Assembly: GCA_964016885.1 (NCBI GenBank)
Contig: OZ024743.1
Span: forward strand, 191,146,001-191,210,000
DNA: 64,000 nt
Direction of reading: 5' to 3'
Source of the DNA: Eledone cirrhosa
Taxonomy: Eukaryota
The translations under genes were made by a program, and so were the position numbers. The notes beneath the pieces are model-generated. The model was not told the origin of the DNA, ran no database searches, and was given only the letters and a program-made list of their open reading frames with translations. Below, piece by piece: positions 3,696 to 59,075 of the stretch (the first letter of the stretch is position 1; every line of letters starts with the position of its first letter).

Positions 3696-3742
<47 letters not shown>

Positions 3743-4649: not shown

Positions 4650-5270
4650 CCGTGAGGTGAGGTGTCTGTTTCAGCAGGTGTCGCTGGCCATTTCCTCGGG
4701 AATGTGTTTGAGGTTTTGCCCGCGTGGTGCAGTCCCAATACCACCGCCCCTAGGCATCAGATCCGGCTGGATTCCCAAACGAGACTAGTCAAGCTCATGG
4801 ATGTTATCAAAGCATCTTGCTTGAGATCAAATCCTGTGTCTTCTTGCCAGTTGGATTTGCCCATGAAATCTGTCCAGCAATTCTTTCCTGGGACATTCTA
4901 ACCATATACTCGTAGTATTGGAGCTGTGAACTCTTAATTGGTAGAAGTAGTGGTTTTACCTGGAGTGGCTCTCTGATCTCCGTGCTACACACTCTGTTGA
5001 TTAACGTTACACCACCAAAGTCCCTTCGGAGGATCACCATTTCAGCCGCATTTATTCGAATTTTTTTTCTTTCAGACATTACCTACTATTCATGACCGTA
5101 GGTAAGAGTTGGCTCGAACACCGAATTGAACATAGCAAGTTTGAATTTTATGTCTACCTTGGCGGTTCCGAGATTATGACCAGATTGGTGACCATCAAAA
5201 AACATTGCCATATGGCTAAACACGACAAAGGCAATCATACCAGCATCCTCCTTAGCGCTGGTTAACAAGG
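4650..5270 (-). mobile_element. Degraded RTE-clade LINE 3' fragment
   Basis: KLAMFNSVFEPTLTYGHE..RINAAEMVILRRDFGGVTLINRV..SQLQYYEYMVRMSQERIA, typical RTE thumb/C-terminus; (CACCT)n tail. Confidence 0.8.
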
Positions 5271-10085: not shown

Positions 10086-10187
10086 AATGATCTTTTTTGT
10101 TCCAGAACCTAAATTGTCAATTATCTCTTTTATATTGTTCTGGAACATCATTGAATTGGAAAAAAAAAGAAAAAAAAATTAATAATA

Positions 10188-10230
<43 letters not shown>

Positions 10231-10231
<1 letters not shown>

Positions 10232-10705
10232 TTGAATTTTTAACATATTTAAATCATTTGTGAAATAACAACTCTTAGTACAAATGCTACGTAAAGCACC
10301 CGGCTTGAGCCCCCAAAAATTCGGACCCATAATATATTGTTATAAGGCTCAAATATTCAAATATTCAACTTTGTATTGTACACTGTATATCCAAAAAAGA
10401 AAATGGCTATAAATGGAAGAAGAACCCCCCCCTCCTCCTCTGTCTACACTATATAGAACAGCCAAACTCACCAACACCAGAAACTAGATACACCACCCAC
10501 CCCATCACCTGTGTACACTAAACCACGACCGCTCACTACGGCCATCATTACAACCATTATCCCATCACCGCCGCCACCACCCCTTCACTCCTTCACTGCT
10601 ACCACCGCTACAGCACCATCACTTCAGTAATACGGTCACATCACCGCCACCACTGCCTCGGTATCGACATCACCACCACCACTGTCTCAGTATCGCTACC
10701 GCCGC
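10231..10705 (+). repeat. ~480-bp direct repeat, copy 1 (copy 2 at 14771-15265)
   Basis: Both copies start tttgaatttttaacatatttaaatcatttgtg and end in ACC-rich sequence. Confidence 0.9.
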
Positions 10706-11049
10706 CAGTCGCCCACTTCTTTTAGCTGGCTGCTGCCACCACATTATAGAATCCCTACTGCTAAAAAAGAGGAAGGCATCAAAATATATAGATAGACTCA
10801 AAAGAAAAAAGAAAAAACAAACAACAAAACCAAAGCAGCACAGCAACAACAGCAAAAAACGAGAAAAACAAACAGAGAAAAACAAAAACAAAAAAAAAAC
10901 AAAAAAAAACAAAAAACGTAAAGAAAATAAGAATGAAGAGAGAAGCAGGCGGACGGACAGAGAAGAGGGGGGAAAAACTAAAACTTAAAAAACAAAAACT
11001 AAGTCAGACATTCGAACACTACATTACAATGAAACTTATGCTTATTCAT

Positions 11050-14000
11050 TTTTGGGGCCCTTTCTGCCTGTGTGTTTGTTTGTTTATGTGTGTTCGTATA
11101 CAGCGTGCTGATAATGCCACACAAGGGCCAAGTGGAATGGCGGATCCACAGATGGCTATGTAACCATACATTCGCCAATCCTCGATAAGAGTGTTTAAAT
11201 ATCGAACATAAACAGTTCGAATAACGGTGAAATGGAGACTAGAACGTCATGTGACAGACTCTCACCCAACAGGTGCCCCCTGGCTCAGCAGCAGGAACCT
11301 GACTGTCAACCAAATACTGCTGATGTTGGAGGAAGGAGAAGAAGGAAAGGGGCCAGAACCAACTGGACGAAAGAATTAAATAGAACTGTTATGCAATGTT
11401 ACCTGAAAAGTAACCCCAAGGAGAGGGGCTACAGGAGACGGATGCATAACATCTGGAACGAGATTGGTTTATTTAAATTAGATGAACAAAAATTGGCCGG
11501 GCAGGCTCGGGTAATAAGAACTAATGGGTGGATAAGCGAGCTCGAACTGGAGGAACTGAGCAGAGAGAATGGCTTGGAGATGGCGAGCCAGTGGGAAATG
11601 AAGGTGAAGAGGTCCTGAGAACGGAGGAACCACCCGAAGCAGACAATGATCTGAATACTGAGATAAATAATACCTGGAACAGAGATACGGCCACTGAGGA
11701 GATGAATGCTGACGGGCTAGGACAAGATTCGGTTGACATCCTAAATTTAGTGGTAGATGAATTGAACAATGATAGTGGGAGACCTATGAACCTAAGATTT
11801 GTAGACAGGAAAAAGTTAAAAGAAACAACAGCTAAGGTAAACAAAGTCATCCCATACCTTGAGGCGAGGAGCCTTCACCAGTGCAACAATATCCTCAAAG
11901 CAACAGCAAATACGGTGAGGAAACTACTTGGTATAAAAGCGAGAGGAAACAACAGACAAGAAAGAGCAGAGCCGTGGTGGAAGAAGCGACTCAGTGGGCA
12001 AATCAGGGAAATGAGAAATGACATAGGAAAGCTTGAGTCACTACTGAATGGGACACTAAAAAACATAGGCACTAAAAATAGACTGGAAATAAAATACAAA
12101 ACTAGGAGGAAAAAGCTAAATATTACCATAGAGGAACTGAAGCAACGCATTGTAGCAAAGAGTGCAAAAATCAGGCGATACGAGAACAGAGTCAGTCAGT
12201 ATAAACAGAACCGCATGTTCGACAACAACCAGAAGATGCTGTTTGGACAGCTTGAGGGGAAAGAAAGAGGCAACGACTTGATCCCTGGGGCGGAGCAAAC
12301 TAAAACATTCTGGAGAGGAATATGGGAGCAGGATGTTAGACACAATGCCCAGGCAGGGTGGATTGAGACAGTACAGAGGGAGATCGGTGAGCAGGCACAA
12401 CAACAAACTGATTTGAGTATCACAGTTGAAACTCTTAAGGGGCAGGCCAAAAAACTAACCAACTGGAAATCACCAGGCCCAGATGGTGTGCAGGGGTATT
12501 GGATTAAACATTTAACATCCCTCCACCCGAAGCTGACGGCCATGTTCAATGACTGCTTGGTGTCGGGTGAGGTGCCAGAGTGGTTGACAAAAGGTACCAC
12601 AGTTCTGATAATGAAAGACCGAATCAAGGGTAATGATGTTACCAACTATAGACCTATCACATGTCTGTCCGTAATGTGGAAACTGTTGACGAGCATTGTG
12701 TCTGAGGAAATCTACCATCACCTCCACACAAACAACTTGTTACCGGACGAACAGAAAGGATGCCGAAAGAAGTCACGTGGTACAAAGGACCAGTTACTTA
12801 TTGATAAGATGGTAATGGGGAATTGCAGGAGGAGACACACTGATCTTGCCATGGGATGGATAGACTACAGAAAGGCATTTGGCATGGTGCCTCATTCCTG
12901 GATCACCAAAAGCCTGGAGATCTTCAGGGTGGCAGACAACATCAGACAGTTGCTAGGCAGGAGTATGGGGTCCTGGGAGACAGAGTTGACATCAACTGGA
13001 GTATCCTTAGGAAGCGTGAAGATCAAGAGAGGTATCTTCCAGGGAGATAGCCTGTCCCCTCTGTTGTTTGTCCTTGCTCTGATGCCCTTGACCATTATGC
13101 TGCGAAAAGTGAGAGCAGGATACAAGTTGGGAAGGGGAGAGCTTACCATCAATCACCTCCTCTTCATGGACGATCTTAAGCTCTTCGGGAAAAGTGAGAA
13201 GGAGTTGGATGTGCTTGTTGACACTGTCCGTATTTTCAGCAGTGATATATGTATGCAGTTTGGTATTGGTAAATGTGGAGTCATTGTGATGAAGAGGGGT
13301 AGGTTGAGCAGAAGTAACGGGATCCAGATACCAACAGGTGAGATGATAAAGGAAATTGACTCTGAGGAAGGATACAAGTATTTGGGCGTTCTGGAGGCTG
13401 ATGGCATAAAGAACAAAAAAATGAAGGAATTGTTAAGAACTGAATACATTCGGAGAGTAAGGAACGTATTGAAGTCACATCTGAACAGCAGAAATGCCAT
13501 AAGCGCAGTAAATTCCCGAGCTGTGTCTATTATTAGGTACAGTGCGGGAATTCTGAGATGGAATGTTGCTGAACAAAAAGAAATGGATAGGAAGACTAGG
13601 AAGCTATTGACTATCTACAACATGTTCCACAAGAGGAGTGATGTCGATAGACTCTACCTAAGGAGATCTGAGGGTAGAAGAGGTCTTATCAGCATAGAGG
13701 ACTGTGTTCAGATGGAGAAAAACAACCTATACAAATACGTGACCTATAGTAAGGAGCCAATGCTCAGAACTGTACTGAAGGAGGGGACAGTAGGCCAGGG
13801 GATGTCCAAGGAGGAAATAACATCAAGGAGGAAGAGCAGCCTTAAGGGAAAATCCCTTCATATTACCTTCTTTGAGAAAACTGAATTTAGAGATCCACAG
13901 ACATGGAACTGGTTGAGAAGAGGAGACCTCAAAAAGGCTACAGAAGGAATGCTAATGGCTGCGCAGGAGCAGGCCCTCAAAACGAAGTGGTTGAAGCACC

Positions 14001-14686
14001 ATATCTACAAGGAGGAGGCTAGCCCACTGTGCAGGATCTGTGGAGAGAGAGAGGAGACTGTGGCTCACATTGTGTCCGAGTGTAAACACCTAGCCCAGAC
14101 CCACTATAAGGGATGGAGACACGATGTGATGGGCAGAGTGATCCACTGGCACCTGTGCAAAGTAAACAATTTACCACATTCTGAGAAATGGTATGAGCAT
14201 AGGCCAGAGGCGGTGATGGAGAACAATCAGGTGAAGGTGCTGTGGGATTTTAGGATACAGACGGACAAAAAACTGGAACACAATAGACTTGATCTGGTGG
14301 TTGTGGACAAAGAAAGAAGATCGTGCCTGATTGTGGATGTGGCCTGCCCATTCGACACGAGAGTGCAAGAGAAGGAGAGGGAGAAAATTAACCGATACCA
14401 GGACCTAAAGTGGGAGGTGAAAAGGATTTGGAACTGCCATGAAGTCAAAGTGATCCCGATTGTCATAGGCGCACTGGGGACTATCTCCAAAAGTTTCCAG
14501 GGATGGTTAAAGAAAATCGGCCCCTTCACGCTTTTTGGAACGCTTCAAAAGGCATGCTTGCTTGGAACAGCAAGAACCCTCCGATACGTCCTGAATATCT
14601 GAGGCTGCAGGTAGTGGCTTGATATTCAATCCAACGGACTTTCCAGTTAACCAACATCAATGACTGAGATTCAAGGAATAACAACA

Positions 14687-14720
<34 letters not shown>
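11050..14720 (+). mobile_element. R4/Dong-clade RLE non-LTR retrotransposon #1, near full length
   Basis: N-terminal RTNWTKELN..GYRRRMHNIW, RT, CCHC and RLE domains, short 3' UTR and (TAA)n tail. 5' boundary approximate. Confidence 0.93.
11232..14602 (+). pseudogene. R4/Dong RT-RLE polyprotein with one frameshift (11232-11618 plus 11528-14602)
   Basis: KSPGPDG, NYRPITCL, IDYRKAF, QGDSLSPLLF, HLLFMDD, CRICGEREETVAHIVSEC, RHD..NRLDLVVVDK..VDVACP..KINRY. Confidence 0.93.
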
Positions 14721-14770
14721 GGGAAGAAGACGCACGAGGTGACGGAAGGTCATGAAATCGCTCCCGTAAG

Positions 14771-15265
14771 TTTTGAATTTTTAACATATTTAAATCATTT
14801 GTGAAATAACAACTCTTAGTACAAATGCTACGTAAAGCATCGGGCTTGAGCCCCAAAAAATTCGGACCAAAAATATATTTTTATAAGGCTCAAATATTCA
14901 AATATTCAACTTTGTATTGTACATTGTATATTCAAAAAAGAAAATGGCTATAGATAGAAGAAGACCCCCCCCCCCCTCCTCTGTCTACGCTATATAGAAC
15001 AGCCAAACAACACCAGAAACTAGATACAACACCTACCCCATCACCTCTCTGTGTACACTAAACACAACAGCCAGATAACGGCAATTTCACCACCACCACT
15101 CACTACTGCCATCATTACCACCACTATCCCATCACCGCCGCCACCACTCCTTCATTGCTACCACCGCTACAACTCCATCACTACAGTAATATGATCACAT
15201 CACCACCACCACTGCCTCGGTATCGACATCACCACCACCACTGTCTCAGTATCGATACCGCCGCT
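14771..15265 (+). repeat. ~480-bp direct repeat, copy 2
   Basis: Matches 10231-10705. Confidence 0.9.
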
Positions 15266-15612
15266 ACTGTCTCCCACATCTCCCCGCCGCCACCACTCCT
15301 TCAATGCTACCACCACTATTCCCCTGTTAACTTGAGAGAGAAAGGGGAAGGTGGCGGTATCACTAGACAAGGGAGAGGCTAGCAAAAGATATAAATAGAT
15401 TGACTTAGTGACCTGGCCACGGCCAAACGTCAACATCAACAACTATGGGACTGCTGGCTCACCCCTTCCTCACCAACAATATAAAAAGCCCCGGCACCAC
15501 CACCGACATAGCCAACAACAATAACAGCCAACTACAACAAAAAGTATATTATATTATTGTAATGCACTGGGTGATTGCTGGCCTTGTGCCTGGAGTGGAG
15601 ACAATTATTAAT

Positions 15613-18600
15613 AATTTCATTCTTAAGCCACGCAATGCTCACATTAAGGAACCACTCATGATAATAACAAAAAGAAAACCCCATGACCAAGAAATACCGG
15701 AATGGCGGCCGGCGGGGAATGCTAATGGTTCAAACCTTCCCATCACTTCGGAGCTGGAGACCTCCCATAACCGGAATACTCCTACTGTTGGCCCTCCATG
15801 CTCACCACCAAGAAATCCAAAGAAAAAGAGAGAAAAATGGTCAAGGGAAGATAATAAAGAAGTCCTTGAGGCTTTCTACACTGCCATGTACTACCCATCA
15901 AATACATCGAATACAGAACAGACATATATCAACTGGAAAAAGAAACATCCCGAAACAGAGGCTATATTGACAGTAACAAACTAGCCAATATACGAAGAAA
16001 TATTGTAAGAAAAAAGTTACTAACTGATATAGATATTGATCAGATCAAGCTATTAGCACAAAGTCAGCGAAGGGAAAATGAAACATGTGTCAGTGAAAAC
16101 GAGGTAAACTGTAACACTTCGAATCCCAGGGTTGGGGCGGAATCACTGGCAACAGAACAAATTAAAGAAAGGATCGAAAAAGTGGAGGGAGTGCAAGCTC
16201 AGGATGAAACTCCAAATGAAAATAATGAGATCGTAAATGATAAGGAAATGAATGAGAATGAACTTGCCAACTTGAAGGATGAAATTATGATCGAATGGAT
16301 GAAAATGAAAGAATCTGACATGGGGCAACGAGACACCCTCCCTAAGATCCAGAACTCCAAACAGAACCAAAAGATAATACACAAGACTAACATAATTCTC
16401 AAAAACATTATCATCACAAACAAACTAAACATTACTGATTTAAATCATCTCTATTATGCATCGGCTAAAGTCACCACTCACTTATGTGGAGTGAAGATGA
16501 AAAAACAAAGGAATTCCCACAAGAAATCTACTTGGCAAGAGAACATCAATCGCCAAATAAACCTTCTCCGATCTGACATAGAAATTTTAACAAACTATAA
16601 AGTATGTGAACATGTTAAACAAACTAAACTTAGAAAATTGAAAAAAAAGTACAGTATAAAATCAACATGTGACATAGACATGCTGATAGAAATAGTCAAG
16701 CAAAAAGTGTCGGCCAAAGCTGCTCGTATCAGGCGCTTTGAAAAACGATCTAGATTCTATAAGGACAATAATATGTTCAAAAACAACCAAAGAAACTTCT
16801 ACAGAAAAATTGGTAAGTCAACAATAACTGCTAAATAAATACCACCCAAGGAGGAAGTGCAAGAATTCTGGGAAAAGATCTGGGCCGAAGAAAAAGTTCA
16901 TAACATACATGCCCCATGGATAGACAGACAAATGAAAGATACAGCTCACCTTGAGGAACAAACATGGGAAAATATAACAGTTGAACAGTTGCGCTTGGCT
17001 CTAAGAAAAACCAGCAAATCGAAATCCCCAGGAAAAGACAAAATACAAAATTTTGGATAAATGCCTTCACAGAGTCTCATGAGCTGTCAGCCCAACTTTA
17101 CAATGAAATAGTTAAGGAGCCAGAAAAGATACCTTCATGGCTAGTTAACGACATTACATTCCTGCTTCCGAAGAATGATGAGACAAACAATCCCAACAAT
17201 TACAGACCGATAACTTGCTTGACCACAATGTATAAAATTTTAACATCAGTCCTAACTGAATACACATATGACCACCTGATAACAAATGACCTATTTCCCA
17301 TTGAGCAGAAAGGTGTAAACGAGGCTCATATGGCTGTAAGGATCAGCTTCTGGTTAACAAAATGATACTGGAAGATTGTCATAATAGACACAAAAATCTA
17401 TCGATTGCTTGGATAGATTATAAAAAAGCATTTGATAGTTTGCCACACAGTTGGATTGAAAAATGTTTAGAGATTTTCAAAGTATCCCCTGTTGTCAGGA
17501 GGTTTTTGTCATTCAGTATGAAGACATGGAAAACGACACTCCTTTTGAATAGTGAAACAAAATCACTGGAAGCTGGAGAAGTTAATATTAATTGAGGAAT
17601 TTTTCAGGGTGACTCTTTATCACCGCTTTTATTCTGCATCGCACTTATACCATTAAGTAAAATGCTCAATGAAACAAAACATGGATATAAAGTCTATGAC
17701 AAAACCATTAATCACCTGTTCTACATGACCTGAAACTATTTGCAAAAAATGATGAACAATTGCAAGGGCTATTATCCACTGTGAAGCAGTTCAGTGATGA
17801 CATTAAAATGGAGTTTGGACAAGATAAATGCGCCAAAGCAACGTTCACCAGAGGAAAGCTGCTGAAGAGTTCAGACATTAATCTTGATCGGGGGAACGTG
17901 ATAAGAGAACTTGATCAAGAAAAAACTTACAAATATCTAGGTGTTTGTGAAGGAGACGGAATCAAGCACTCGACAATGCGTTGAAAACTGCAACAATTGG
18001 ATTATTTACATATCTAAGGGAATCACATGATTGGATGATCAAACTCGTTTTGAAACACGAAAGCATCAAAAGATCATATTCCATTACAAAAGATGCACAA
18101 AGATACAGTAATGGACTACAAATTTCAGAAGTCCCATTTACTGCTGAAATGGAAAACACAGAAAAAGCAAAGCAGGTAAAAGTAACTGCAAAGAAAGAAC
18201 TGCTACAGAAACTGGCTAAGAAATGGCAAGAAAAGCCTCTGTATGGAAAATACCCAGAGCGAGCTAACAATCCTGATGTTGACAAAACTTTAACTCATCA
18301 GTGGTTGGCATCCTCTGGACTGAAATCGGAGACTGAAGGACTGATTATATCGGCACAAGATCAGTGTCTGCCAACAAAAAATTACCAAGCCAACATAATA
18401 AAAAATGGGTGCAGCCCATTATGCCGTGTATGCAAAAAACAACCAGAGACCATTGACCATATAATTTCAATGTGCAGTCCTATAGCTCCAACCGAATACC
18501 TAAACAGGCATGACAGAGCTGCACAATACATACATTGGATAATGTGTAAGCATTTTGACCTGCCCCATCAAAAGAATTGGTGGGAGCATCAACCACCTCC

Positions 18601-19148
18601 CATACTTGAAAAAGATCACATCTCAATCTTGTGGAACTTTAGCATCCAAACAAACCGAAAAATAGGTGCAAACAGACCTGATATAATATTGAAAGACTTT
18701 CAAAAGTGGGTATGCCTGCTAATTGATATGTCTGTTCCAATAGACAAGAATGTATCTATAAAAACATTTGAAAAATTGAGCAAGTATAAGGACCTGGAGA
18801 TAGAAATTGGAAAAATGTGGACATTGAGAACTAAAACAATACCAGTGGTTGTAGGCGCTCTGGGAATGATACCTAAGGGGTCTAATGATTACATATCGCA
18901 AATCCGAGGAAACCCGCGTATAGGAGAAATACAAAAGATAGTATTAATGGGAACTGCCCATATACTAAGGAAGATTCTGTCAATATAAGTACATCACAAG
19001 TCTAAACACTAAAGATGCACGTGTGAATATGTATGTTCTTTCTTGAACATGGCCGACCTTGTTGTCTCTTGAGGTCACTGGTTGTGACTTGGTGATAACT
19101 CGTATGAACATAAAGCAAGATAAATGCAACTGTAATAATAATAATAAT
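15613..19148 (+). mobile_element. R4/Dong-clade element #2, degraded
   Basis: [59 protein letters not shown]. Several stops and frameshifts, deletion near 17980. Flanked by TAA repeats; the 5' side is a SINE tail (15560-15612). Confidence 0.92.
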
Positions 19149-34229: not shown

Positions 34230-34280
<51 letters not shown>

Positions 34281-34285
<5 letters not shown>

Positions 34286-35676
34286 CTTCGGGAGGGTCAT
34301 ATTGTTGTAATAATATTGCCAGAATTAATAACAGAACACACTCACTGTTTGGTTAGTTTTCGCTTCTGTATCTTTTATATCAGTTAATTTATTCGGTCTT
34401 CCATGTTTACCATTGACTGACCAACTGTCAAAAATACAGATATAATATAGACACAAACACATATATATAGTCTAACAAAGTTCTTTCGTTGCACATCTGC
34501 AACATCGTCAGTGGTACTATTATGTTTCCTCCTGTTGTATTGTATGTCTACGCCATCTTTATTTAATCGGTTTATTTATTTATTTTTGTCTTCTCTGCGC
34601 ATGCGTTTGCGTGTGTCTATAGTGTTTGGTCTGTGTTCGTGTTTGGGTGACTGTGTTTTGGTTATTGTATTCTATCTTAGTTTACTAGTGTGTGTTTATA
34701 TGTGTTTGTTGTTATTGTCCTTGTGTATGTATTTATTTATTTATATTTCTCTTAGGTCAGTATTGTTGGTTTGGGTGTTGTTGTTATTCGATTCATTTTT
34801 TCTGTTTAGCTTTGGCCTTCTAAGTTCTATTTCACTGGCCTCTCTGATTTGCCTATCTGCTGGGTCATTTCTATGTTTAGATATTATTTAATTTCTATGT
34901 TGTCTATGTTACCGTCATGTTGTTGTCTGGCGTGTTCGTATAGTACTGAACCGTCTTTTCGTCCTTTTAGTTCCCCCCAGTGTTGGTCTATACTTTCACC
35001 TATGCTACGAGCTGTCTCGCCTATGTATGTTGTTGTCATGTTTCTGCAAGTACCCTCTGTACATCTTATGCTATAGACTACGTTTCTAGTTTTACAGTTT
35101 ATCCAGGGTTTACTTTACATATGATACATTTCCTATTAGTACAGTGGGTTTTCTTAAAAGGGTATGTTTTACTAATCAGGGATTTTATGGCGGTTCCTGG
35201 CTTTTCTACCTCCTTAATCTTTAAGTGGGTCTTTCTCAGGGTCTTTCTACACTGGTTAGCTAATTTACCTCCAGGGATAGCGTCCATGAACATGACACTC
35301 TGGTATCTCTGGTTGTCATACCATGAGGTAGCTTTCCCTATCGTATGCGCAGAGAAGAAGACAAATATAAATAAATAAATAAACAGATTAAATAAATATG
35401 GCGTACACATACAATACAACAGGAGGAAACAATAGAACCACTGAACTGACGATGTTGCACATGTGCAACGAAAGAACTTTTTTAGACTATATATATGTGG
35501 TTGCGTCTATATTATATCTGTATTTTTTACCGTTGGTCAGTCAATGGTAAACATTTAGGACTGAATAAATTAACTGATATAAAAGATACAGAAGTGAAAC
35601 CCAACCAAACAGTGAGTGTGTTCTGTTATTAATTCTGGCAATATTATTACAACAAAATGACCTTCCCCAAGTATAA
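34281..35676 (-). mobile_element. 5'-truncated Penelope-like element (Neptune/Nematis-like) with inverted pseudo-LTRs
   Basis: SVMFMDAIPGGKLA..PFKKTHCTNRKCIIC, then after a frameshift NCKTRNVVYSIRC..YIGETARS..RQIREA..LNRKNE (GIY-YIG). Inverted repeats at 34281-34605 and 35342-35676. Confidence 0.88.
34484..34515 (-). ncRNA. Hammerhead-like core (mirror copy at 35446-35473, +)
   Basis: CTGACGA-t-gttgca(gatg)tgcaac-GAAA. Stem III and the cleavage site could not be resolved cleanly. Confidence 0.5.
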
Positions 35677-35720
35677 CAATATTTGTTTCGACACACGATT
35701 TCATATCAAAAACCTCGCAA

Positions 35721-36190: not shown

Positions 36191-36231
36191 CGCTGTACTA
36201 GTTTCAAGTTTATTAGCTATCGTCAGCAACG
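36191..36231 (-). ncRNA. Minimal type I hammerhead ribozyme
   Basis: cgttg-CTGACGA-tagctaataaactt-GAAA-ctag-TA-cagcg. Palindromic ACTAGT stem III, GUA triplet, weak stem II. Confidence 0.72.
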
Positions 36232-36456: not shown

Positions 36457-37917
<1,461 letters not shown>

Positions 37918-38095: not shown

Positions 38096-38145
<50 letters not shown>

Positions 38146-38274
38146 AAAGTTATATTTAAATTGTTGGGTTACAACTAGTAAATATTTATAACTGATATAA
38201 AAGCACTCAACAAGTATTTGGAGTATATTTACGATATTAAATAAATGGAAACTATATTTATAAAACCATATTTA

Positions 38275-38336
38275 TTTCATTATATATATTTCAGGGATAT
38301 CATATTAACAATATGTTATGCCTTCTTCAGACAAAA
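38275..38336 (-). ncRNA. Type I hammerhead, left arm
   Basis: Mirror copy of 40667-40728. Confidence 0.7.
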
Positions 38337-39798
38337 TACAATATAGACAGTTTTATAGATAAATAGATTTGACATACCGTTCAACATCGACTTGTATTTG
38401 AAAAAGTTGATTTGGCAGTGAAAAATTGTAAACAGAAAGAAAGAAAGAAGGAAAGAAAGAAAGAAAACGAAGAAAAAGAAGAAAAAAGAAAAAAGAAGAA
38501 ATGCATGCAACAAAATAGAGAGATGGAAAGATAGATAAAGAGAAGAACTTCATGTAAAGAAACAGAGAGAGATATATAGAGAGAGGAAATAGATAGAGAT
38601 AGATATATATAGAGAAAAGTAGGTAGTTGCATGACGTATCAATGATACATTTATTTATTTATTTATTTATTTAGCTCTAGTATTAATGTAAGGGAGATAT
38701 ATGTGGTTAGGAAAGAAACCAGCCGTTATATAGAGAGAAAAAATGAAAAGTAACCAGACATAGGCGAGGCAGAATTTAAAAACCCTATGTTTTAATGTAG
38801 AGATATTAGTTCGTATAAAAACCAGGCACTATAATGTAAATATCAGTATTCCTGAATGAGACACGTATCTAAAATGTGTGAAAAGTAATGATCTTATGTC
38901 TAGTTTTAAAAACTCATGTTTATATGATAATTATAAACATCGATGTGAATTTACGTGATCAGCTCTGCAAACCCCCATTTCACACGGAGAACATTCTCAT
39001 TGTGCTATAAAAATTTAAGTATACATATATGTGTATATATACACATATATATAGAGTCAATATTAATGTTAACAATACTATTCATGTCTTTACTCTACAT
39101 GATTATCTATCAAGCAGAAATAGAGAACAGATTTCAATATATTAATAAAAATATCAGAAACAAAAACAAAAAATAATAATAAAAATAAAAATAAAAATAA
39201 AAATAAAAATAAAAATAAAAATAAAAATAAAAATAAAAATAAAATTAAAAATAAAAATAAAAATAAAAATAAAAATAAAAATAAAAATAAAAATAAAAAT
39301 AAAAATAAAAATAAAAAAAAAAATATTTGGGAAACTAGCCGATAAATCTTTCGATTTCTAATTTTTTATTTTTATTTTTATATTAAACATTCTTCATGAA
39401 GAATGTAACTACCCTAAAAGTTGATGCTCAAAATATATCGAATAAACGTTACACTAGATAAACTTCTATATTAAATATAAGAACATATGTAGACCAAATG
39501 GGCATCCTAAACTTTTGAAATGATTTCTGCTAGACGCGATTTGGTAAATAATTTTTAGCTTTATCTGTTTTCGACTCTGATGCTTATAATGAACTTGGCA
39601 ATATATTGTCAATTAATTTTGAAGGGTTGATCTTTGTCGTCGATTTGCGTGGCATATTATGTTTTTATTTTTATTATTTTAATATTTTTTAATATTTTTT
39701 TTTTTTTTTTTTTTATATTTTTTATATTTTTATTTTTAATATGTAATATTTTTTAGTTTTCTATTTTATTTATTTGTTTATTATTTTTATTATTTTTA

Positions 39799-39848
<50 letters not shown>

Positions 39849-40666
39849 TTTTGTTTTTGTTTCTGATATTTTTATTAATATATTGAAATCTGTTCTCTAT
39901 TTCTGCTTGATAGATAATCATGTAGAGTAAAGACATGAATAGTATTGTTAAAATTAATATTGACTCTATATATATGTGTATATATACACATATATGTATA
40001 CTTATTTTTATAGCACAATGAGAATGTTCTCCGTGTGAAATAGGGGTTTGCAGAGCTGATCACGTATATTCACATCGATGTTTATAATTATCATATAAAC
40101 ATATGAGTTTTTAAAACTAGACATAAGATCGTTACTTTTCACACATTTTAGATACGTGTCTCATTCAGGAATACTGATATTTACATTAACTAATATCTCT
40201 ACATTAAAACGTAGGGTTTTTAAATTCTGCCTCGCCTATGTCTGGTTACTTTTCATTTTTTCTCTATATATAACGGCTGGTTTCTTTCCTAACCACATAT
40301 ATCTCCCTTACATTAATACTAGAGCTAAATAAATAAATAAATAAATAAATGTATCATTGATACGTCATGCAACTACCTACTTTTCTCTATATATATCTAT
40401 CGCTATCTATTTCCTCTCTCTATATATCTCTCTCTGTTTCTTTACATGAAGTTCTTCTCTTTATCTATCTTTCCATCTCTCTATTTTGTTGCATGCATTT
40501 CTTCTTTTTTCTTTTTTCTTCCTTTTCTTCGTTTTCTTTCTTTCTTTCCTTCTTTCTTTCTTTCTTTCTGTTTACAATTTTTCACTGCCAAATCAACTTT
40601 TTCAAATACAAGTCGATGTTGAACGGTATGTCAAATCTATTTATCTATAAAACTGTCTATATTGTA

Positions 40667-40728
40667 TTTTGTCTGAAGAAGGCATAACATATTATTAATA
40701 TGATATCCCTGAAATATATATAATGAAA
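40667..40728 (+). ncRNA. Type I hammerhead, right arm
   Basis: ttttgt-CTGAAGA-aggcataacatatt/aatatgatatccct-GAAA-tatata-TA-atgaaa, followed by AATAAA; AUA triplet. Confidence 0.7.
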
Positions 40729-40770
40729 TAAAAATGGTTTTATAAATATAGTTTCCATTTATTTAATATC

Positions 40771-40812
<42 letters not shown>

Positions 40813-40908
40813 TGAAGTTTCCGTTGGAAATTGAAAAAGTCATAGGAGTGAAGAGTTCTCTATATAAGTAACAGAGCTAAATTTAATGTATAATAAACAA
40901 TACAATAT

Positions 40909-40986
40909 AATTACTTCATTATCAGAGGTTTCCCGAAAAAGACGAATACAAGAAACGTCCTCACTCGTTCGTCGGACAGGGCAATT
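40909..40986 (-). ncRNA. Variant hammerhead (CCGACGA core), inverted pLTR copy
   Basis: Mirror copy of 43471-43548, with a substitution near the cleavage triplet. Confidence 0.65.
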
Positions 40987-43470
40987 TAAAACATATGGGT
41001 TTTTTGACAGTGCTGACGTGTGTGATTTAGTCGGCCTATTCCTCCTACACACACTTAAAGAGAAATTCCCTAACCATACCTTTGGGTTTTATCGCGACGA
41101 TGGTCTAATACTTTCCCATACCACCATTGGCCATAACTTAGATAGAATAAGGGAAGACTTAATAAAAACCTTCGCAAGTTTTAATCTTAAAATTACCATT
41201 GACACTAAACCTTCCAATGTTAATTTTTTAGATATAAAACTAGATCTGCCTACTGCTTCTTATAAACCGTACCATAAACCTAATGAAAATTTAAAATATA
41301 TAAATAAAGGCTCTTGCCATCCTCCTATAGTTTTTAAAAATATTATCCCTAATATTAGTCGTAGGATCTCCACCCTCTCTTCCACAGGAGCTATTTTCAA
41401 TAAAGCATCCCCCTACTATAATAAAGCCCTTCAAAATAGCGGATTTAGCGAACTGATTAAGTACATACCCAATAATACTAACTCCTTTAAACATAATAAT
41501 AGGAAAAGAAATATATTCTGGTTCACATCCCCTACTCTTTAGCAGTTAAAACTAATGTAGGCAAAAAATTCCTAGAGCTCTTTGATAAACATTTCCTTAG
41601 AACACATAGATACTATAAGATCTTCAATAGAAACTGTGTCAAAATCAGCTACTCCTATGGTCCCCCTATTAAATCTTATATCCTCAATAAGAAAATACCC
41701 AGAGAACATCAAAATTGCTCCTGTAGAGTCAAAAGTGAATGCCCATTACAAGGGAAATGCAACACCAAAGCCATTGTATATGCGGCTAAAGTGACAAGCA
41801 CCAGCAACAACCCACCAGCCACCAGTGAACGATATGTGGGTATGACACAAGACAAATTCAAAACGCGTTATTACTCACATGTCGTATCTTTCCGACAACC
41901 TGAAAAAAGATTTACAACAGCTCTGGCTAGCAGAATATGGGATTTGAAAGACTAAGGTATCCAATATAAATTAGATTGATCAATTTTGAACAAATCTAAA
42001 GAATATGCAAGAGGAATAAGAAGATGCGCACTCTGCATAAGTGAAAAATATTGGATTTTACAGAACCTTAAATCACCAAAAACCTGCCTAAATGCAAAAC
42101 CAGAAATTTTCACCAGTTGCCCACACATGAAATCACACTTGCTTTCCAGCTCATATAAACTTAACTCACTTTCAGATACTTATCCTCCATAAACTATTGT
42201 TCTTCACTTTCCTTAAATTACCCTCTTTACAGACTTCTATTTCTGATTTACTTTTACTTTTATTTTTAACTTTATTTTTACTTCGCATCCACCAGTGACC
42301 CCCACCCCCATGTTTTTGTATTCACTTACATTGTATCTTCACAATTCCACACATTTTACTTCCCCATTTACTTTCTCTACCTCATATAGCATGTCACTTT
42401 CGTTTTCAACTCCAGATATATTCTGTTGTCTCTCAGCCGCTCTTATGTATGTTTACTTGCGTATAATTTGTACTCATTTATTCATACGGCTGGTTTTTAA
42501 TTTGAATCTATGCGTGTGACCGTGTATGTGTGTGTATGCGTGTTTGTATATGTATACGATTGCATTCGTATGTGCGCGTGTGTGTGTATATGTGTGTTTG
42601 TATGTGTGTTTTTCTATCTATGTTTTTTACATACTTATATATACGTGTGTGTGTTTGTGTGTATATATATGTATATATATATATATGTATGTGTTTGTAT
42701 GTGTGTATATATATATATATGTATGGTCGTGTGCGTACGTGTGATTAGATATATATGTGCCCATATATATATATGTGCTTCGTGTGTATGTATGCGCGCC
42801 TTTGTATATATGTACGCATGTATGTGCTTTTGTCTGTACGTATTTATATATATATTTATATATATATATATATGTGTACCTACGAACCTATGTTTGTTAT
42901 CTATATTGTCTAGTGTTACTTTATAATTGATAACCCCCCCCCTTACTTTATCTTTGATTTAAAATTTATTTATTCTCATATATTTTTTCTTTTTTATATA
43001 TGTATCGACCTTCATACTAACACTGCTTTGACTGATACACTCCCTTCCCTGTATATATATATCTCGCATGTATGAGGTTGCGCGTGTGTGTGTGTTTATA
43101 CGCGTTCTTTCATACTTGTGTGTGTATATACTTCAATCTTTAATACCTGAGTCTGGATGTACGTTAACTCTATTGTCTTACAATTTCTTTTTCAACATAT
43201 ATTATATATATATTTGTGGTCACACATACACTGATATGCTTGCCCTCATATATATAGTTACGCACACATTTTTCACTATACACATGCATTTGTACATACA
43301 CATATATGTACATTTCTGACTGAATATACACACATTTATACACATACACTAACTATATTTCCTTATTTTATTTTTATATATCTCTTGCATTACTTTTACT
43401 TATATATGTTTTTTGCCCGTTAAACTTTGCCTTTCTTGAGGAGATTTTTCAAATATTCAACTATGTTTTA

Positions 43471-43548
43471 AATTGCCTTGTCCGACGAACGAGTGAGGAC
43501 GTTTCTTGTATTCGTCTTATTCGGGAAACCTCTGGTAATGAGGTAATT
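43471..43548 (+). ncRNA. Variant hammerhead (CCGACGA core)
   Basis: aattgccttgt-CCGACGA-a-cgagtgaggacg/cgtcttattcg-g-GAAA-cctctgg-TA-atgaggtaatt; 11-bp stem I. Confidence 0.75.
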
Positions 43549-43569
43549 ATATTGTATTGTTTATTATAC

Positions 43570-43629
<60 letters not shown>

Positions 43630-44282: not shown

Positions 44283-45741
<1,459 letters not shown>

Positions 45742-45745
45742 TTAT

Positions 45746-45787
<42 letters not shown>

Positions 45788-49120: not shown

Positions 49121-49840
49121 CTATTTCATGCCTACAGAAAATGGATTTTCTATTTTGTTGTTAAGCAGCATCCTATCGTGCCTTAAAATATGTAGCACTT
49201 CTAAATTGCAGAGCCTGCAGTGGGACATACCGTTGCTGTAGGCTTTTGCTGTCGTTAATTTCGACCAGCTAATCTTATATTCTAGGTTTTTGCCCTTAAG
49301 CTGCCAGATTTTATTTGCGAGCGTTGTAGAGTTCTCCAGTGTGTGGTTCTTCATGGAGTGTCTGTGTACGTACCACATTTTCTTAAACTCCCCAGCTGTG
49401 GAACCTATGTAGTGCCAAGTAGAGTTGCCTGAATTCACAGTACACAGGTATATCATGCTCGAATCCAGGAATCTATTCTGTAGTGGGCACTTATCAGGTA
49501 GGTGGCAATTACAATTTGAGGTTTTATTTTGTGCAGGTTTGTCGTTGCGTTTTTGTAAGTTGTTGTGGGTGGGTTGTGATTTAGGCCTATTAATGTTTTG
49601 TTGTGATGCGTTCTGATGCATTTGTAGTTGTGATGTTGTTATGTGTTTGTTTTTTGTATTTGGTGCTATGGTGTGCGTTGGTAGGTTAATGTCTTTAGAG
49701 ATATTTTTGTGGTTGATCTTGTGTATGTGCGATTCTATGTTGGCTGCAGTAGTGTATGAAAGTTGTATAGTTTTTCTATTGAAGATTTTATGGTATTTAT
49801 GTAGTGTAGGGAAGTGTTTATCTATTAGTTTAAAGAATGT
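49121..49840 (-). mobile_element. Naiad-clade Penelope-like GIY-YIG fragment
   Basis: KLIDKHFP..HKIFNRKTIQLSY, NCNC..CPLQ, MIY..YIGST, CRLCNLE. Confidence 0.9.
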
Positions 49841-51233
49841 AGAAGATAGTTTAGATATTATTCTTGTTATTAATTATCTTAAAATAGTAAGAATTCATTA
49901 CTAGTTTTTTGCTTCACTTATTGAAAAGACGAAAAATGTATAAACATATTTCAAATATATTGTATTTGTTCTTGTATGTTTTTATTTCATTTATTTATCC
50001 TTTATTTCATTTATTATAATTTTATAGGAAAACGTTTATTAAATATAATTTATTTTACAGTTTCTAATTGTGAAAATGATTTGTGCATGTATCACTCCAT
50101 GACTTCAGGACATAAACTTGATTGTTTTCTATTGTTAAACAAAATGTAAAACAGACATAAATAATATTAGGTGTGAATATATAAATAATTTTCAGCTTAG
50201 CGGGTGGCAAATTTTGATTTTACTTAACTTTGATTATTACTCAGATTTCAAATTTCTTGCAGAAGATGTAACGAAAATCATAATTACTTTAGACAGCGAG
50301 ACAAAATTGAAAATGTTATTTTCATGTGCTAAAAAAGTACGTCGTGTCTTATCAATTTTCAAATACATATAGAACAAAATCATTTTTCTAGTTATGTTTT
50401 TCAGTCAATGTATGTGTCTGAATGAACGAATGAATATATATAATATTTACATTCATGTCTGTGTTTATATGCATATATATGTGTAATGGTGTAAATACAC
50501 AGGCACAAGAACACACACACACATTCATACACACATGCATACCCGCACACAATTTTCTTACCCGAAGTGCTCATCATTAACTACAGGCTGTCGGGCAATT
50601 TGTGTATATTTTCATATATATATTAGAATATATTTAAGATAAGCTAGTATTTAAAGCATTGAAATATTAAATGAATGAGGACTCAATACTAGAGAGTAAA
50701 GTGTAGAGATTTATTTTCTCAGTAGAAAAGTAGAAAAGTGTGGTTGTTTTATATATATCAACTTCAGTTTTTCCCCTAAACAACATCGATAGCCTGCAGA
50801 GTTGAATTACTTGAGTGGACAAATAATATTTTCCACAAAAAATCCATCCCCACACCGGATAAAAACCTTTCAGGTGTAAATGCATTCTCAACCTAAAGGT
50901 TCAAGCCATCAGCTTTTACATAGCCTATCCTGAATAAGGCTATGTTTGAAGAGGAAAAGGAAAAGTGAGAAGGACCACTTAGCTTTTTTATGAGGAAAAA
51001 GGACGGTTGATTTGTCTTTCCAGCTAATTTTGGGCACTTCCACAACAATATCGTTGTATTTTTTTTGTTTAATGACTCTAGAATATTTTCAATTTCTTCG
51101 TGGTTTTCGATCTTATGTTGCTGTACCACAAATTTTGACGGTGAAGTCAGAGTTTTTTTCATGTTCTGTCTATATGTATATATATATATATATATGTTTA
51201 TGTATATATATATATAAGTTTATATATATATAG

Positions 51234-52605: not shown

Positions 52606-55432
<2,827 letters not shown>

Positions 55433-55471: not shown

Positions 55472-55579
<108 letters not shown>

Positions 55580-55721
55580 TTAGGTTAATAGGAGTTAGGT
55601 ATTGTATACCCGTGTCCCATTAAGGTATTGGCAGCATAATAATTAGCTCTATGCTTTGGAGCAGAGCCGTATATATGATAAAGAACACAAGAGCGTCTAC
55701 AACATCAAAAGATTTTTATTG

Positions 55722-55766
55722 GCTTACAATGTTTCTTCCTTACGTTACCGTACGATTCGTCAGAGC
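55722..55766 (-). ncRNA. Minimal hammerhead, left arm
   Basis: gct-CTGACGA-a-tcgtacg(gtaa)cgtaagga-a-GAAA-cattg-TA-agc, then AATAAA. Confidence 0.78.
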
Positions 55767-56019
55767 TATAAAAGGGGTTTGATTGGTGTTATGGACTCTA
55801 CCAACCAAACATTCAAGAACAAAGAGTAAAGATAGTAAAGAGCAAAAGTAGGGGACGATAAGTCTAATTTTGGTGCGGGAGGGTGGGGTGTGGGTCCTTG
55901 TTTACTAGCTGCGGTCATATTCATTCCCGGGAGTCGAATGGTTAGCTGAACCATAGATGGGGTGGCGTCGATAGTATGGTGCAGAGGGTGTGCAGAGGCC
56001 ACACAGACACAACGGGCAT

Positions 56020-56054
<35 letters not shown>

Positions 56055-57066
56055 CGGAGGAGAAAGTACATGAGGTAATTAGAAATGGAAAAAGAGTATC
56101 TATAATTAATAATGTATAATAAGGCATGGGGAAGATTACACTATAATAAGGTATAAAATTAAGAATAATGTAAAATATAAAGGAGGATAAAAGTGGAAAT
56201 AATAAAGATAAAAAATATATATGTAAAAAAAAATATATAGAGAATATATAAAGAAATATAAGCGAGTATTTGGAGGGGAAAACACAATGTAAAAAAACCG
56301 ATTTTTTCAAATAAAAATAAAAATATTATAATTATGGGGGGAGAAAACGGGATAGAGAAATATTATCAAATGTGATTAGTTGAGAGAATATAAGATGATA
56401 ATATTTATGTCAAGTTTATACATCTTAATAATAATATATTCTCCCAACTAATCACATTTGATCATATTTCTCTATCCCGTTTTCTCCCCCATAATTATAA
56501 TATTTTTATTTTTATTTGAAAAAATCGGTTTTTTTACATTGTGTTTTCCCTTCCAAATACTCGCTTATATTTCTTTATATATTCTCTATATATTTTTTTT
56601 ACATATATATCTTTTATCTTTATTATTTTCACTTTTATCCTCCTTTATATTTTACCTTATTCTTACTTTTATACCTTATTATAGTGTAATCTTCCCCATG
56701 CCTTATTATACATTATTAATTATACATTATTAATTATTACTCTTTTTCCATTTCTAATTACTTCATGTACTTTCTCCTCCGTTATATATATATATATATA
56801 TATTGTATGCCCTTTGTGTCTGTGTGGTGTGTGGCCTCTGCACACCCTCTGCACCATACTATCGACGCCACCCCATCTATGGTTCAGCTAACCACTCGAC
56901 TCCCGGGAATGAATATGACTGCAGCTAGTAAACAAGGACCCACACCCCACCCTCCCGCACCAAAATTAGACTTATCGTCCCCTACTTTTGCTCTTTACTC
57001 TCTTTACTCTTTGTTCTTGAATGTTTGGTTGGTAGAGTCCATAACACCAATCAAACCGCCTTTATA

Positions 57067-57111
57067 GCTCTGACGAATCGTACGGTTACGTAAGGAAGAA
57101 ACATTGTAAGC
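57067..57111 (+). ncRNA. Minimal hammerhead, right arm
   Basis: Mirror copy of 55722-55766. Confidence 0.78.
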
Positions 57112-57208
57112 CAATAAAAATCTGTTGATGTTGTAGACGCTCTTGTGTTCTTTATCATATATATATATATGAATTATAAGAATCAAAGAATTGTTCAAAA
57201 CATTTTTA

Positions 57209-57255
57209 TGCTTACAACTGTTTCCTCCAAACCGAGGTTTGGATTCTTCGGAGCA
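57209..57255 (-). ncRNA. Variant hammerhead (CCGAAGA), left arm
   Basis: Mirror copy of 57999-58045. Confidence 0.78.
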
Positions 57256-57998
57256 ATTTATTTTTGAATGAACACTTATATGACCTCCTTTTAACCCAAG
57301 AGACATACAGATACATATGCAAATATTATGGGTCAACATTCATTACAGCATTTAGAGTGGCAGTACACACTTAGAGATTACATTCATATTAAAAGATACA
57401 ATCAAAAATACAGGTTAAAATACAACATGAAAATAAGCGGTTATATAGTTCAAAGGTTATATGTGTGGCAAGCACGTGCGTCTTGTTTATATAGTGTGGC
57501 AGAGAGTTACGTGTAGTAGAAGCACTTAAGCAGGTAAACAAGGGTTTTAGGTTGGTTGATCTGGTGACAAATTCTTTATATGATTGTTATAGTCTGTGTG
57601 TGGAGAAATAATATAAGCATTACACTATTTTTAATGCTTATATTATTTCTCCACACACAGACTATAACAATCCTATAAAGAATTTGTCACCAGATCAACC
57701 AACCTAACACCCTTGTTTACCTGCTTAAGTGCTTCTACTACACGTAACTCTCTGCCACACTATATAAACAAGACGCACGTGCTTGCCACACATATAACCT
57801 TTGAACTATATAACCGCTTATTTTCATGTTGTATTTTAACCTGTATTTTTTATTGTATCTTTTAATATGAATGTAATCTCTAAGTGTGTACTGCCACTCT
57901 AAATGCTGTAATGAATGTTGACCCACAATATTTGCATATGTATCTGTATGTCTCTTGGGTGAAAAGGAAGTCATATAAGTGTTCATTCAATAATAAAT

Positions 57999-58045
57999 TG
58001 CTCCGAAGAATCCAAACCTCGGTTTGGAGGAAACAGTTGTAAGCA
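57999..58045 (+). ncRNA. Variant hammerhead (CCGAAGA), right arm
   Basis: tgct-CCGAAGA-a-tccaaac(ctcg)gtttgga-g-GAAA-cagttg-TA-agca. Confidence 0.8.
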
Positions 58046-58251
58046 TAAAAATGTTTTGAACAGTTCTTTGATTCTTATAATTCATATATCTGCTCTGTAA
58101 ATCATCTGATGTTTTTACATTGAGCTACTTAACTTACTGGTAATAAGGTAATAATATATTACTGCCTACCACGATTTAGGGTATGTATAAAAATATATAT
58201 AACTGCAAAAGGTTTTGGTATTTACATAACTATAAATAGTATAATTAATAC

Positions 58252-58390
<139 letters not shown>

Positions 58391-58838: not shown

Positions 58839-58930
58839 GCCGTAGGCTAAAACTATCCATAATAAGAAGTATTCACAACCTCTAACTGGATTACCTATAA
58901 CGATATTTTGTTATCCTTTATATATATATA

Positions 58931-58999
<69 letters not shown>

Positions 59000-59075
59000 G
59001 ATAACAAAATATCGTTATAGGTAATCCAGTTAGAGGTTGTGAAACTTATTATTATGGATAGTTTTAGCCTGCGGC
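58839..59075. repeat. ~80-bp inverted repeat centred on (TA)n
   Basis: gccgtaggctaaaac..tccttt (TA)n aaagga..gttttagcctgcggc. Confidence 0.9.

What the first reader, a model, noticed from the sequence alone, without database searches (positions are those of the whole stretch)
55671..58088. Non-coding foldback palindromes capped at both ends by outward-facing hammerhead ribozymes
Seen: two adjacent, mutually unrelated near-perfect palindromes (~730-bp and ~455-bp arms; spacer as short as 9 nt) with no coding sequence. Each arm ends in a type I HHR, an A-rich or AATAAA signal and TA repeats. The same polarity occurs at 38230-40773 and in the inverted pLTRs of the coding PLEs at 34281-35676 and 40810-43572. 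Established: Penelope-like elements carry HHRs in their pLTRs, and 5'-truncated copies often have an inverted pLTR. Inference: these are the extreme products of that mechanism, or a self-propagating class of ribozyme-ended foldback elements. A read-through transcript from either strand would be cut once at its 3' end and fold into long dsRNA (a possible ADAR or siRNA substrate).
Basis: partly seen in the sequence, partly recalled or inferred. Interest (0 to 1): 0.75.

Follow-up and report, generated by a model that had tools for sequence, protein, structure and literature searches.

The report
Two-armed Penelope retrotransposon insertion stubs
These two DNA palindromes are truncated end-pieces of two abundant Penelope-type jumping genes, not a new ribozyme-capped element, and the fixed pattern of their ends suggests that each insertion likely forms when both strands of one DNA cut start copying the same RNA from two separate start points.

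Summary
The palindromes and four outward-facing type I hammerhead motifs are real. They are not a self-propagating class. Each arm is the 3' UTR and pLTR of a high-copy coding Penelope-like family of the Hydra clade. Both central junctions are unique in the genome, and other head-to-head copies vary freely in size. In family F2, 47 of 75 sampled insertions are two-armed, and all 47 pair one tail end with one pLTR end. Arms share private variants. The tail arm is the shorter one in 29 of 47, which simple cDNA snap-back cannot give; twin priming from two RNA start sites fits. A GCTC..GAGC hairpin, or most of it, follows both sites in four families. Inverted pLTRs and one-sided tails are published; twin priming and the twin hairpins were noted earlier by this scan on other DNA, including this genome. 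Self-cleavage of a read-through RNA is unlikely: the motif is buried in the hairpin. Real, mostly ordinary, with a testable mechanistic lead.

The parts
55478..55575 (.). (TA)n target array left of P1
   Evidence: sequence
55576..55669 (-). 94-nt unpaired tail of family F1 on the left arm (sequence that follows the pLTR end in full copies)
   Evidence: matches positions 1-94 of a long F1 copy at 98%
55645..55668 (-). GCTC..GAGC bulged hairpin just past the F1 pLTR end (predicted start signal for reverse transcription)
   Evidence: fold -9.2 kcal/mol; role inferred
55670..56434 (-). P1 left arm: 3' UTR and pLTR of Hydra-type PLE family F1, 5'-truncated near position 4341 of a 5104-nt reference copy
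55722..55766 (-). type I hammerhead motif (CUGACGA core, 3-bp stem I, 2-bp helix III)
56435..57164 (+). P1 right arm: F1 3' UTR and pLTR from about reference position 4390, ending at the pLTR end without tail
   Evidence: junction unique
57067..57111 (+). type I hammerhead motif; both P1 arms share a stem II change absent from 27 family copies
   Evidence: reads show the other base
57155..57170 (.). short (TA)n shared between P1 and P2; both families target TA arrays, which explains their adjacency
   Evidence: sequence; flanks of other copies
57165..57622 (-). P2 left arm: 3' UTR and pLTR of Hydra-type PLE family F2 from reference position 3733, ending at the pLTR end without tail
57209..57255 (-). 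type I hammerhead motif with CCGAAGA core
57620..57631 (+). P2 junction: 3-nt overlap plus 9-nt spacer, which is native element sequence of the right arm
   Evidence: unique
57632..58089 (+). P2 right arm: F2 3' UTR and pLTR
57999..58045 (+). type I hammerhead motif with CCGAAGA core, 7-bp stem II
58090..58254 (+). 165-166-nt unpaired tail of family F2
   Evidence: fixed tail end in other copies
58092..58125 (+). GCTC..GAGC bulged hairpin just past the F2 pLTR end (predicted start signal)
   Evidence: fold -8.3 kcal/mol; role inferred
58255..58388 (.). (TA)n target array right of P2
   Evidence: sequence

Best explanation
Each palindrome is one 5'-truncated, two-armed insertion of a coding Hydra-type Penelope-like retrotransposon into a TA microsatellite, likely made when the element's enzyme nicked both DNA strands and primed two cDNAs on the same element RNA, one from the tail end and one from the pLTR end, whose free ends were then likely joined by repair. 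Shown: the arms are 3' ends of coding families F1 and F2; junctions are unique; ends are fixed at two sites; one of each per insertion; both arms come from one source sequence. Inferred: two primers, one RNA, strand displacement (or a second RNA from the same locus) when both cDNAs cover the same stretch, end-joining at the centre, and a small hairpin 3' of each site as the start signal. When the tail-primed cDNA stops early the result is a plain inversion; when both run on and stop near the same point the result is a near-perfect palindrome such as these two. The hammerheads face outward only because each arm keeps the pLTR; they are likely passengers here.
For: Copies extend 5' into an RT plus GIY-YIG frame. 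553 and 1095 exact matches of ribozyme-region patterns. Among the first 100 hits per family, neighbours within 7 kb are head-to-head 21 and 13 times, tail-to-tail 0 times. 47 of 75 F2 insertions are two-armed; 47 of 47 have one tail end and one pLTR end; F1 12 of 13 (read); family F4 13 of 13 partners among 30 tail-bearing copies end at the pLTR end. Tail arm longer in 16, shorter in 29, unclear in 2 of 47, and in 8 of 47 the arms share no sequence (hand count). Arms share 303 non-majority variants against 71 expected (21 F2 pairs) and 163 against 19 (13 F1 pairs). Breakpoints lie within 120 nt in 11 of 32 pairs against 3.6 permuted, p=5e-5. GCTC lies within 2-8 nt of 7 of 8 end sites in four families, the eighth has ACTC..GAGT; two sites were predicted before looking. 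In vitro, a Poseidon-clade protein cuts and extends both strands, starts at two sites that bound the tail, and is predicted to be a dimer (PMC11167929).
Against: In both window copies the tail arm is the longer one and the junction is tight, so snap-back is not excluded for these two. Microhomology at junctions is not enriched (2 nt or more in 3 of 21 F2 junctions against 18% by chance; none in 11 F1 junctions, where mismatches to the reference blur the call). One F1 pair (L131) breaks the one-tail rule. 28 of 75 F2 insertions show no partner of 17 nt or more. Shared variants also fit two RNAs from one locus or later gene conversion. The hairpins are not more stable than shuffles (z -1.5 to +1.0) and the F4 tail-end hairpin has a mismatch. 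A pile-up of tail pieces at the pLTR end (5 of 19 within 4182-4210) is only suggestive. The in vitro system is a different clade. No RNA or long-read data.
Confidence: 0.7

Rival explanations
1. Snap-back self-priming: one cDNA starts at the tail end, folds back on itself at a short inverted match, and is copied back to the pLTR end. It may account for some tight palindromes, including these two.
For: Both window copies have the tail on the longer arm; P2 has a 3-nt overlap closing a 9-nt loop and P1 a native 7-bp inverted match at the centre. L108 has a perfect 22-nt hairpin at its junction. Self-priming was proposed for Penelope palindromes in PMC3846280. Shared variants and close breakpoints fit.
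Against: It requires the tail arm to be the longer arm; it is shorter in 29 of 47, also in 4 of the 11 closest pairs, and 8 of 47 insertions have non-overlapping arms. Microhomology is not enriched.
Confidence: 0.15
2. The two ends are set by the endonuclease resolving a DNA intermediate (for example a tandem or circular cDNA cut at two sites), not by two priming events; the hairpin motif would be read as DNA.
For: PMC8557442 attributes the tail to endonuclease-mediated resolution; the D. virilis endonuclease needs the tail for recognition, as cited in PMC11167929. The motif sits at both ends either way.
Against: It does not by itself explain head-to-head arms truncated independently at their 5' ends; the in vitro data place both tail boundaries at RT start sites.
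Confidence: 0.1
3. A self-propagating, non-coding foldback element capped by ribozymes that moves as a unit.
For: Both palindromes are young, non-coding and bounded by TA repeats.
Against: Each junction pattern matches once in the genome (exact matching only); none of 28 and 29 top-scoring other copies has the same junction; pair sizes are continuous; ribozymes are buried in the hairpin.
Confidence: 0.02
4. Foldback artefact of sequencing or assembly.
For: No read bridging the junctions was obtained.
Against: Arms differ by 1.8-2.4% plus indels, the tail is on one arm only, junctions follow element sequence, and the same rule holds at dozens of loci.
Confidence: 0.03

Closest known systems
Hydra clade of C-terminal-endonuclease Penelope-like elements (Craig et al. 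2021, PMC8557442; e.g. Hydra-1_Obim)
   Same: RW(K/R) motif, DKT, CxCx5C linker, C-terminal GIY-YIG without CCHH, CxxC and CxH near the end, hammerhead in the pLTR, (TA)n targets; the protein follows the published Hydra alignment motif by motif by eye.
   Different: Units here are 4.2 and 5.1 kb (published: generally under 3 kb) because of long 3' UTRs; RWR instead of RWK; tails of 94 and 166 nt against the 30-40 bp described for PLEs; F2 has a CCGA ribozyme core.
Inverted-pLTR insertions with one-sided tail and junction palindromes (Adineta Pen2a, PMC3846280; general scheme in PMC8557442 Fig. 2)
   Same: Head-to-head arrangement, inverted 5'-truncated copy, tail on one end only, palindrome at the junction.
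   Different: That paper explains them by self-priming on an antisense template; the counts here fit two primers on a sense RNA better.
Poseidon element PAc in vitro (Frangieh et al. 2024, PMC11167929)
   Same: Two RT start sites bounding the tail, both strands cut and extended, AT-rich targets, ribozyme not needed for insertion.
   Different: Different clade; sites a few to tens of nt apart in one AC-rich stem-loop, against 74-166 nt apart with a hairpin after each here; the paper does not link the two sites to inverted arms in the text read.
LINE-1 twin priming (recalled: Ostertag and Kazazian 2001)
   Same: Two primers from one staggered cut on one RNA give a 5' inversion.
   Different: In L1 the second primer anneals at variable internal sites and arms hardly overlap; here the second site is fixed and arms often duplicate up to 2 kb or more.
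Non-LTR retrozymes (bioRxiv 10.64898/2026.07.22.740005, part 1 read)
   Same: Non-coding, type I hammerhead, derived from PLE pLTRs.
   Different: Retrozymes are direct tandem repeats that spread as units; these are inverted, single-occurrence junctions.

Membership tests
Hydra-clade PLE | Single ORF with RT and C-terminal GIY-YIG endonuclease | tested here: met
   Long copies carry the frame (broken in the copies seen); GIY-YIG Pfam E 0.003-0.075, below cut-off; RT motifs by eye and against the published alignment. RVT_1, NCBIfam and PDB sequence searches gave no RT hit.
Hydra-clade PLE | RWK motif and DKT in place of DKG | tested here: met
   RWR at residue 41-42 and DKT at 126 in both families; K to R is a conservative change.
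Hydra-clade PLE | CxCx5C linker; CCHH absent; CxxC and CxH around the conserved E and N | tested here: met
   CNCRRSSNC and CNCRANRTC; CDLC..CQH and CNLC..CQH; no cysteine pair inside the GIY-YIG core.
Hydra-clade PLE | Hammerhead in pLTR and insertion into (TA)n | tested here: met
Hydra-clade PLE | Length generally under 3 kb | tested here: not met
   Tandem periods 4.18 and 5.07 kb; described as a tendency, not a rule.
Hydra-clade PLE | RT phylogeny places it in the clade | not tested
   No tree built; published sequences were only read in the supplement.
EN+ PLE insertion with inverted pLTR | Head-to-head 5'-truncated copies, tail on one end | tested here: met
EN+ PLE insertion with inverted pLTR | Target-site duplication | tested here: inconclusive
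   Both ends abut (TA)n, which hides any duplication.
Type I hammerhead ribozyme (PLE minimal type) | Core C3..A9 and G12-A15 with stems I-III and UH site | tested here: met
   Motif scan; extra purine beside the core on both sides of stem II; U4 is C in F2. Rfam models did not match.
Type I hammerhead ribozyme (PLE minimal type) | Self-cleavage | not testable with these tools
   Predicted ribozyme fold -9.5 (F2) and -0.5 (F1) kcal/mol against about -90 for pairing with the other arm.
Non-autonomous mobile unit (MITE, foldback element or retrozyme) | Dispersed copies with the same internal structure and ends | tested here: not met
   Junctions unique; pair sizes 109-6258 nt.

The most novel reading that the evidence does not exclude
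Hydra-type Penelope elements insert by a programmed double priming: a protein dimer binds two RCTC..GAGY hairpins in one RNA, each subunit primes one strand of a TA target, and every insertion is in principle two-armed with exactly one tail. This would explain the inverted pLTR, the one-sided tail and the junction palindromes of the whole class with one rule, and would make such genomes rich in ready-made long inverted repeats.
Probability: 0.5. Interest if true: 0.65.

Novelty: new member of a known kind. Interest (0 to 1): 0.38.

Why it matters
As objects the palindromes are debris of a known class. Their value is as a record of mechanism: how Penelope-like elements make inverted repeats and tails is named as an open problem in PMC8557442, and an in vitro system now exists (PMC11167929). 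The 47-of-47 one-tail rule, the non-overlapping arm pairs and the hairpin after each end give sharp predictions for that system. About six in ten sampled F2 insertions are two-armed, so these families may be a large source of dsRNA if transcribed, which was not tested. This scan has already recorded the same mechanism on other windows, so the lead is not new within the scan.

Tried and rejected
Rfam scan: no hammerhead family hit, only hairpin-driven miRNA matches far below threshold. Pfam, NCBIfam and PDB sequence searches did not name the RT; it was identified by motifs. My first model, cDNA snap-back with the tail arm always longer, fitted the two window copies but failed on the wider sample. 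Microhomology test: no enrichment. Ribozyme cut site as the 5' end of arms: no arm seen starting at it, but the sampling pattern spans that site, so the test is weak. Recurrent breakpoints (four at reference 4122-4124, the loop of stem II) were noticed but not tested properly. Sequencing runs: no RNA holder listed; contigs and RAD reads neither bridged nor excluded the junctions. A DNA search with the third family's tail found nothing, not even itself; a pattern search replaced it. In one search the F4 pLTR-end segment was mis-extracted and was redone. Free folding of the isolated ribozymes did not give the hammerhead fold. Literature searches found no paper proposing twin priming or paired hairpin signals for Penelope-like elements; the library lacks most subscription papers, Lunse et al. 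2017 was not held, and bioRxiv supplements were closed. The L1 foldback preprint concerns chromosomal breaks and was not used.

Full report
Observation. Both palindromes are present. P2 has 458-nt arms (57165-57622, 57632-58089), 98% complementary, 9 nt apart. P1 spans 55670-57164 and matches itself at 93% including indels; its arms differ at 17 of 696 aligned positions. A relaxed type I hammerhead scan found the four motifs, outward-facing, among 10 sites in the window, against 0-1 per shuffle in 20 shuffles. Rfam has no matching model. P1 reads CUGACGA, P2 CCGAAGA; both have a 2-bp helix III and an extra purine on each side of stem II. The CCGA core is the normal form of that family (21 identical of 31 motifs listed).

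What the arms are. The window lies in a 3.0-Gb genome. Each arm has many 93-99% identical copies (1913 and 922 first-look candidates, 40 scored each), and exact 25- and 27-nt ribozyme-region patterns match 553 and 1095 times. Other copies run further 5' by variable amounts. [quoted passage not shown] The proteins have RWR, DKT, CxCx5C, CxxC and CxH and lack CCHH, the features given for the Hydra clade (PMC8557442 section 11), and they follow the published Hydra alignment by eye. F1 and F2 proteins are 49-58% identical in their long alignments. The elements at 38.2-40.8 kb (F3) and 40.8-43.6 kb (F4) are further Hydra-type families; the one at 34.3-35.7 kb has a CX4CxxC linker and looks Neptune-like.

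Not a mobile unit. A 36-nt and a 30-nt pattern across the two junctions each match once, at this locus (exact matches only). Among the first 100 pattern hits per family, neighbours within 7 kb are head-to-head 21 (F2) and 13 (F1) times, tail-to-tail never, same-strand 4 and 3 times; head-to-head spacings run from 109 to 6258 nt. The window copies are the tight end of that range. Their adjacency is explained by a shared target: nearly all copy ends join (TA)n, and P1 and P2 sit in one TA array.

The rule at the ends. Copy 3' ends fall at two fixed sites, the pLTR end and the tail end (F2 reference 4189 and 4355; F1 5103-5104 and 94 or 99 nt further). The first 100 of 553 F2 hits make 75 insertions, all examined: 47 have an inverted partner of 17 nt or more, and all 47 combine one tail end with one pLTR end (binomial p 7e-15 against independent choice); 18 are single with tail, 10 single without; four singles show a 9-13-nt inverted pLTR end by eye. 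F1 follows in 12 of 13 pairs, L131 being the exception. In F4, 13 of 30 tail-bearing copies have an inverted partner within 1.5 kb and all 13 end at the pLTR end. The two arms share 303 non-majority variants against 71 expected from foreign copies in 21 F2 pairs, and 163 against 19 in 13 F1 pairs (12 pattern pairs plus L064; L131 left out); P2 shares 2 (0.06 expected) and P1 3 (0.37). So both arms come from one source in one event, or were homogenised later.

Mechanism. I first tested snap-back: a cDNA started at the tail end folds back and is copied to the pLTR end. It predicts that the tail arm is always the longer. That holds for P1 and P2, but in the F2 sample the tail arm is longer in 16, shorter in 29 and unclear in 2 of 47, and in 8 the inverted piece is tail only and shares nothing with the other arm (hand counts). 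Two primers explain all classes: each strand of the nicked TA target primes a cDNA, one at the tail end and one at the pLTR end; their 3' ends are joined head-to-head. Early stop of the tail-primed cDNA gives a plain inversion; run-through gives an inverted duplication. Breakpoints are closer than chance (11 of 32 within 120 nt against 3.6, p 5e-5; L131, L135, L064 left out), as expected if both copy one RNA to a common end or block; 4 of those 11 have the tail on the shorter arm. Junctions show little microhomology (2 nt or more in 3 of 21 F2 against 18% null; 0 of 11 F1, blurred by reference mismatches) and several carry inserted or locally templated pieces, which fits end-joining (inference). 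Biochemical support comes from another clade: PAc cuts and extends both strands, starts at two sites that bound the tail, is predicted to be a dimer and does not need its ribozyme for insertion (PMC11167929, parts 1-2 of 4 read).

A signal at both sites. In F2 a 9-nt motif and in F1 an 8-nt motif follows both end sites and occurs nowhere else in the reference copy. I predicted GCTC after the unseen tail ends of F4 and F3; 49 and 121 matches returned, nearly all listed ones with one family continuation containing GCTC (the F3 pattern asked only for CTC), and 14 of the 16 fetched loci run on into a Hydra-type frame. GCTC starts 2-8 nt after 7 of 8 sites (background about 1-1.5% of positions); the eighth has ACTC paired with GAGT. 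A GAGC or GAGT partner closes a bulged hairpin at 7 sites (at the F1 tail end in one of two reference copies); the F4 tail end has GATC. The hairpins are not unusually stable, so the case rests on position and covariation. Their role as RT-binding or start signals is inferred.

The read-through RNA. Folding puts 95-98% of each palindrome in pairs and 47-48 of 48 ribozyme nucleotides on the far arm; the ribozyme fold is worth -9.5 or -0.5 kcal/mol against about -90 for the duplex. PLE hammerheads with short helix III are reported to cleave weakly and as dimers (PMC4209133 passages; PMC6765202 passages) or with protein help. A single cut at the 3' end is therefore unlikely. Long dsRNA is possible; expression could not be examined.

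Against what is known. Inverted 5'-truncated copies with a one-sided tail are standard for EN+ PLEs (PMC8557442 passages), and palindromes at the inverted junction were described and read as self-priming on an antisense template (PMC3846280 passages). L1 twin priming is recalled, not read. Eight literature searches found no twin-priming or twin-hairpin account for PLEs. Earlier notes of this scan report both, in other genomes and many times in this one; I had reached the two-primer reading before and the hairpins, and those notes are not independent support.

Verdict. Real feature; new families of a known clade in a known arrangement; the self-propagating foldback idea is refuted. Identity as truncated Hydra-type insertions about 0.95; twin priming as the general route about 0.65-0.7; hairpins as the start signal about 0.55. 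Interest 0.38.

Noticed in passing
window 38143-40779: Third Hydra-type family (F3): palindrome with about 1.1-kb arms and a tail of about 80 nt on the left arm only; other head-to-head pairs of the family vary from 1.4 to 6 kb.
   Followed up: yes
window 40810-43573: Fourth Hydra-type family (F4): truncated coding copy with a 112-nt inverted pLTR and a tail of about 75 nt on the short arm; ribozyme core CCGACGA with a long stem II.
   Followed up: yes
window 34274-35682: Minus-strand GIY-YIG fragment with a CX4CxxC linker (Neptune-like), with an inverted pLTR and a hammerhead with G-C at the base of stem II.
   Followed up: partly
window 49124-49873: Minus-strand Hydra-type endonuclease fragment, 31-40% identical to F1 and F2.
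   Followed up: partly
window 58839-59075: Small 97% palindrome with a (TA)n array at its centre, the reverse of the arrangement of P1 and P2; family not identified.
   Followed up: no
window 36466-37917 and 44294-45746: 1.45-kb direct duplicate (92%) that contains an older 460-nt palindrome (80-83%).
   Followed up: no
window 2708-2779 and 36196-36226: Two further minus-strand type I hammerhead motifs, one with a very long stem II and one compact, outside the palindromes studied.
   Followed up: no
L112, L113, L122, L015 (F2 reference 4122-4124): Four independent arms begin in the loop of ribozyme stem II; other breakpoints recur near 4090-4092, 3806 and 243.
   Followed up: partly
L064:1540-6531: F1 palindrome with 2.2-kb arms that differ at only 8 of 2168 positions, tail on one side.
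   Followed up: partly
L077:918-2085; L108:1048-1083; L137:1358-1489: Nested insertions with several switches of direction or short templated pieces at the junction; outer ends still follow the one-tail rule.
   Followed up: partly
window 7470-18988, 53055-55115: Several LINE-type RT fragments, including a 1025-aa open frame at 11525-14602.
   Followed up: no
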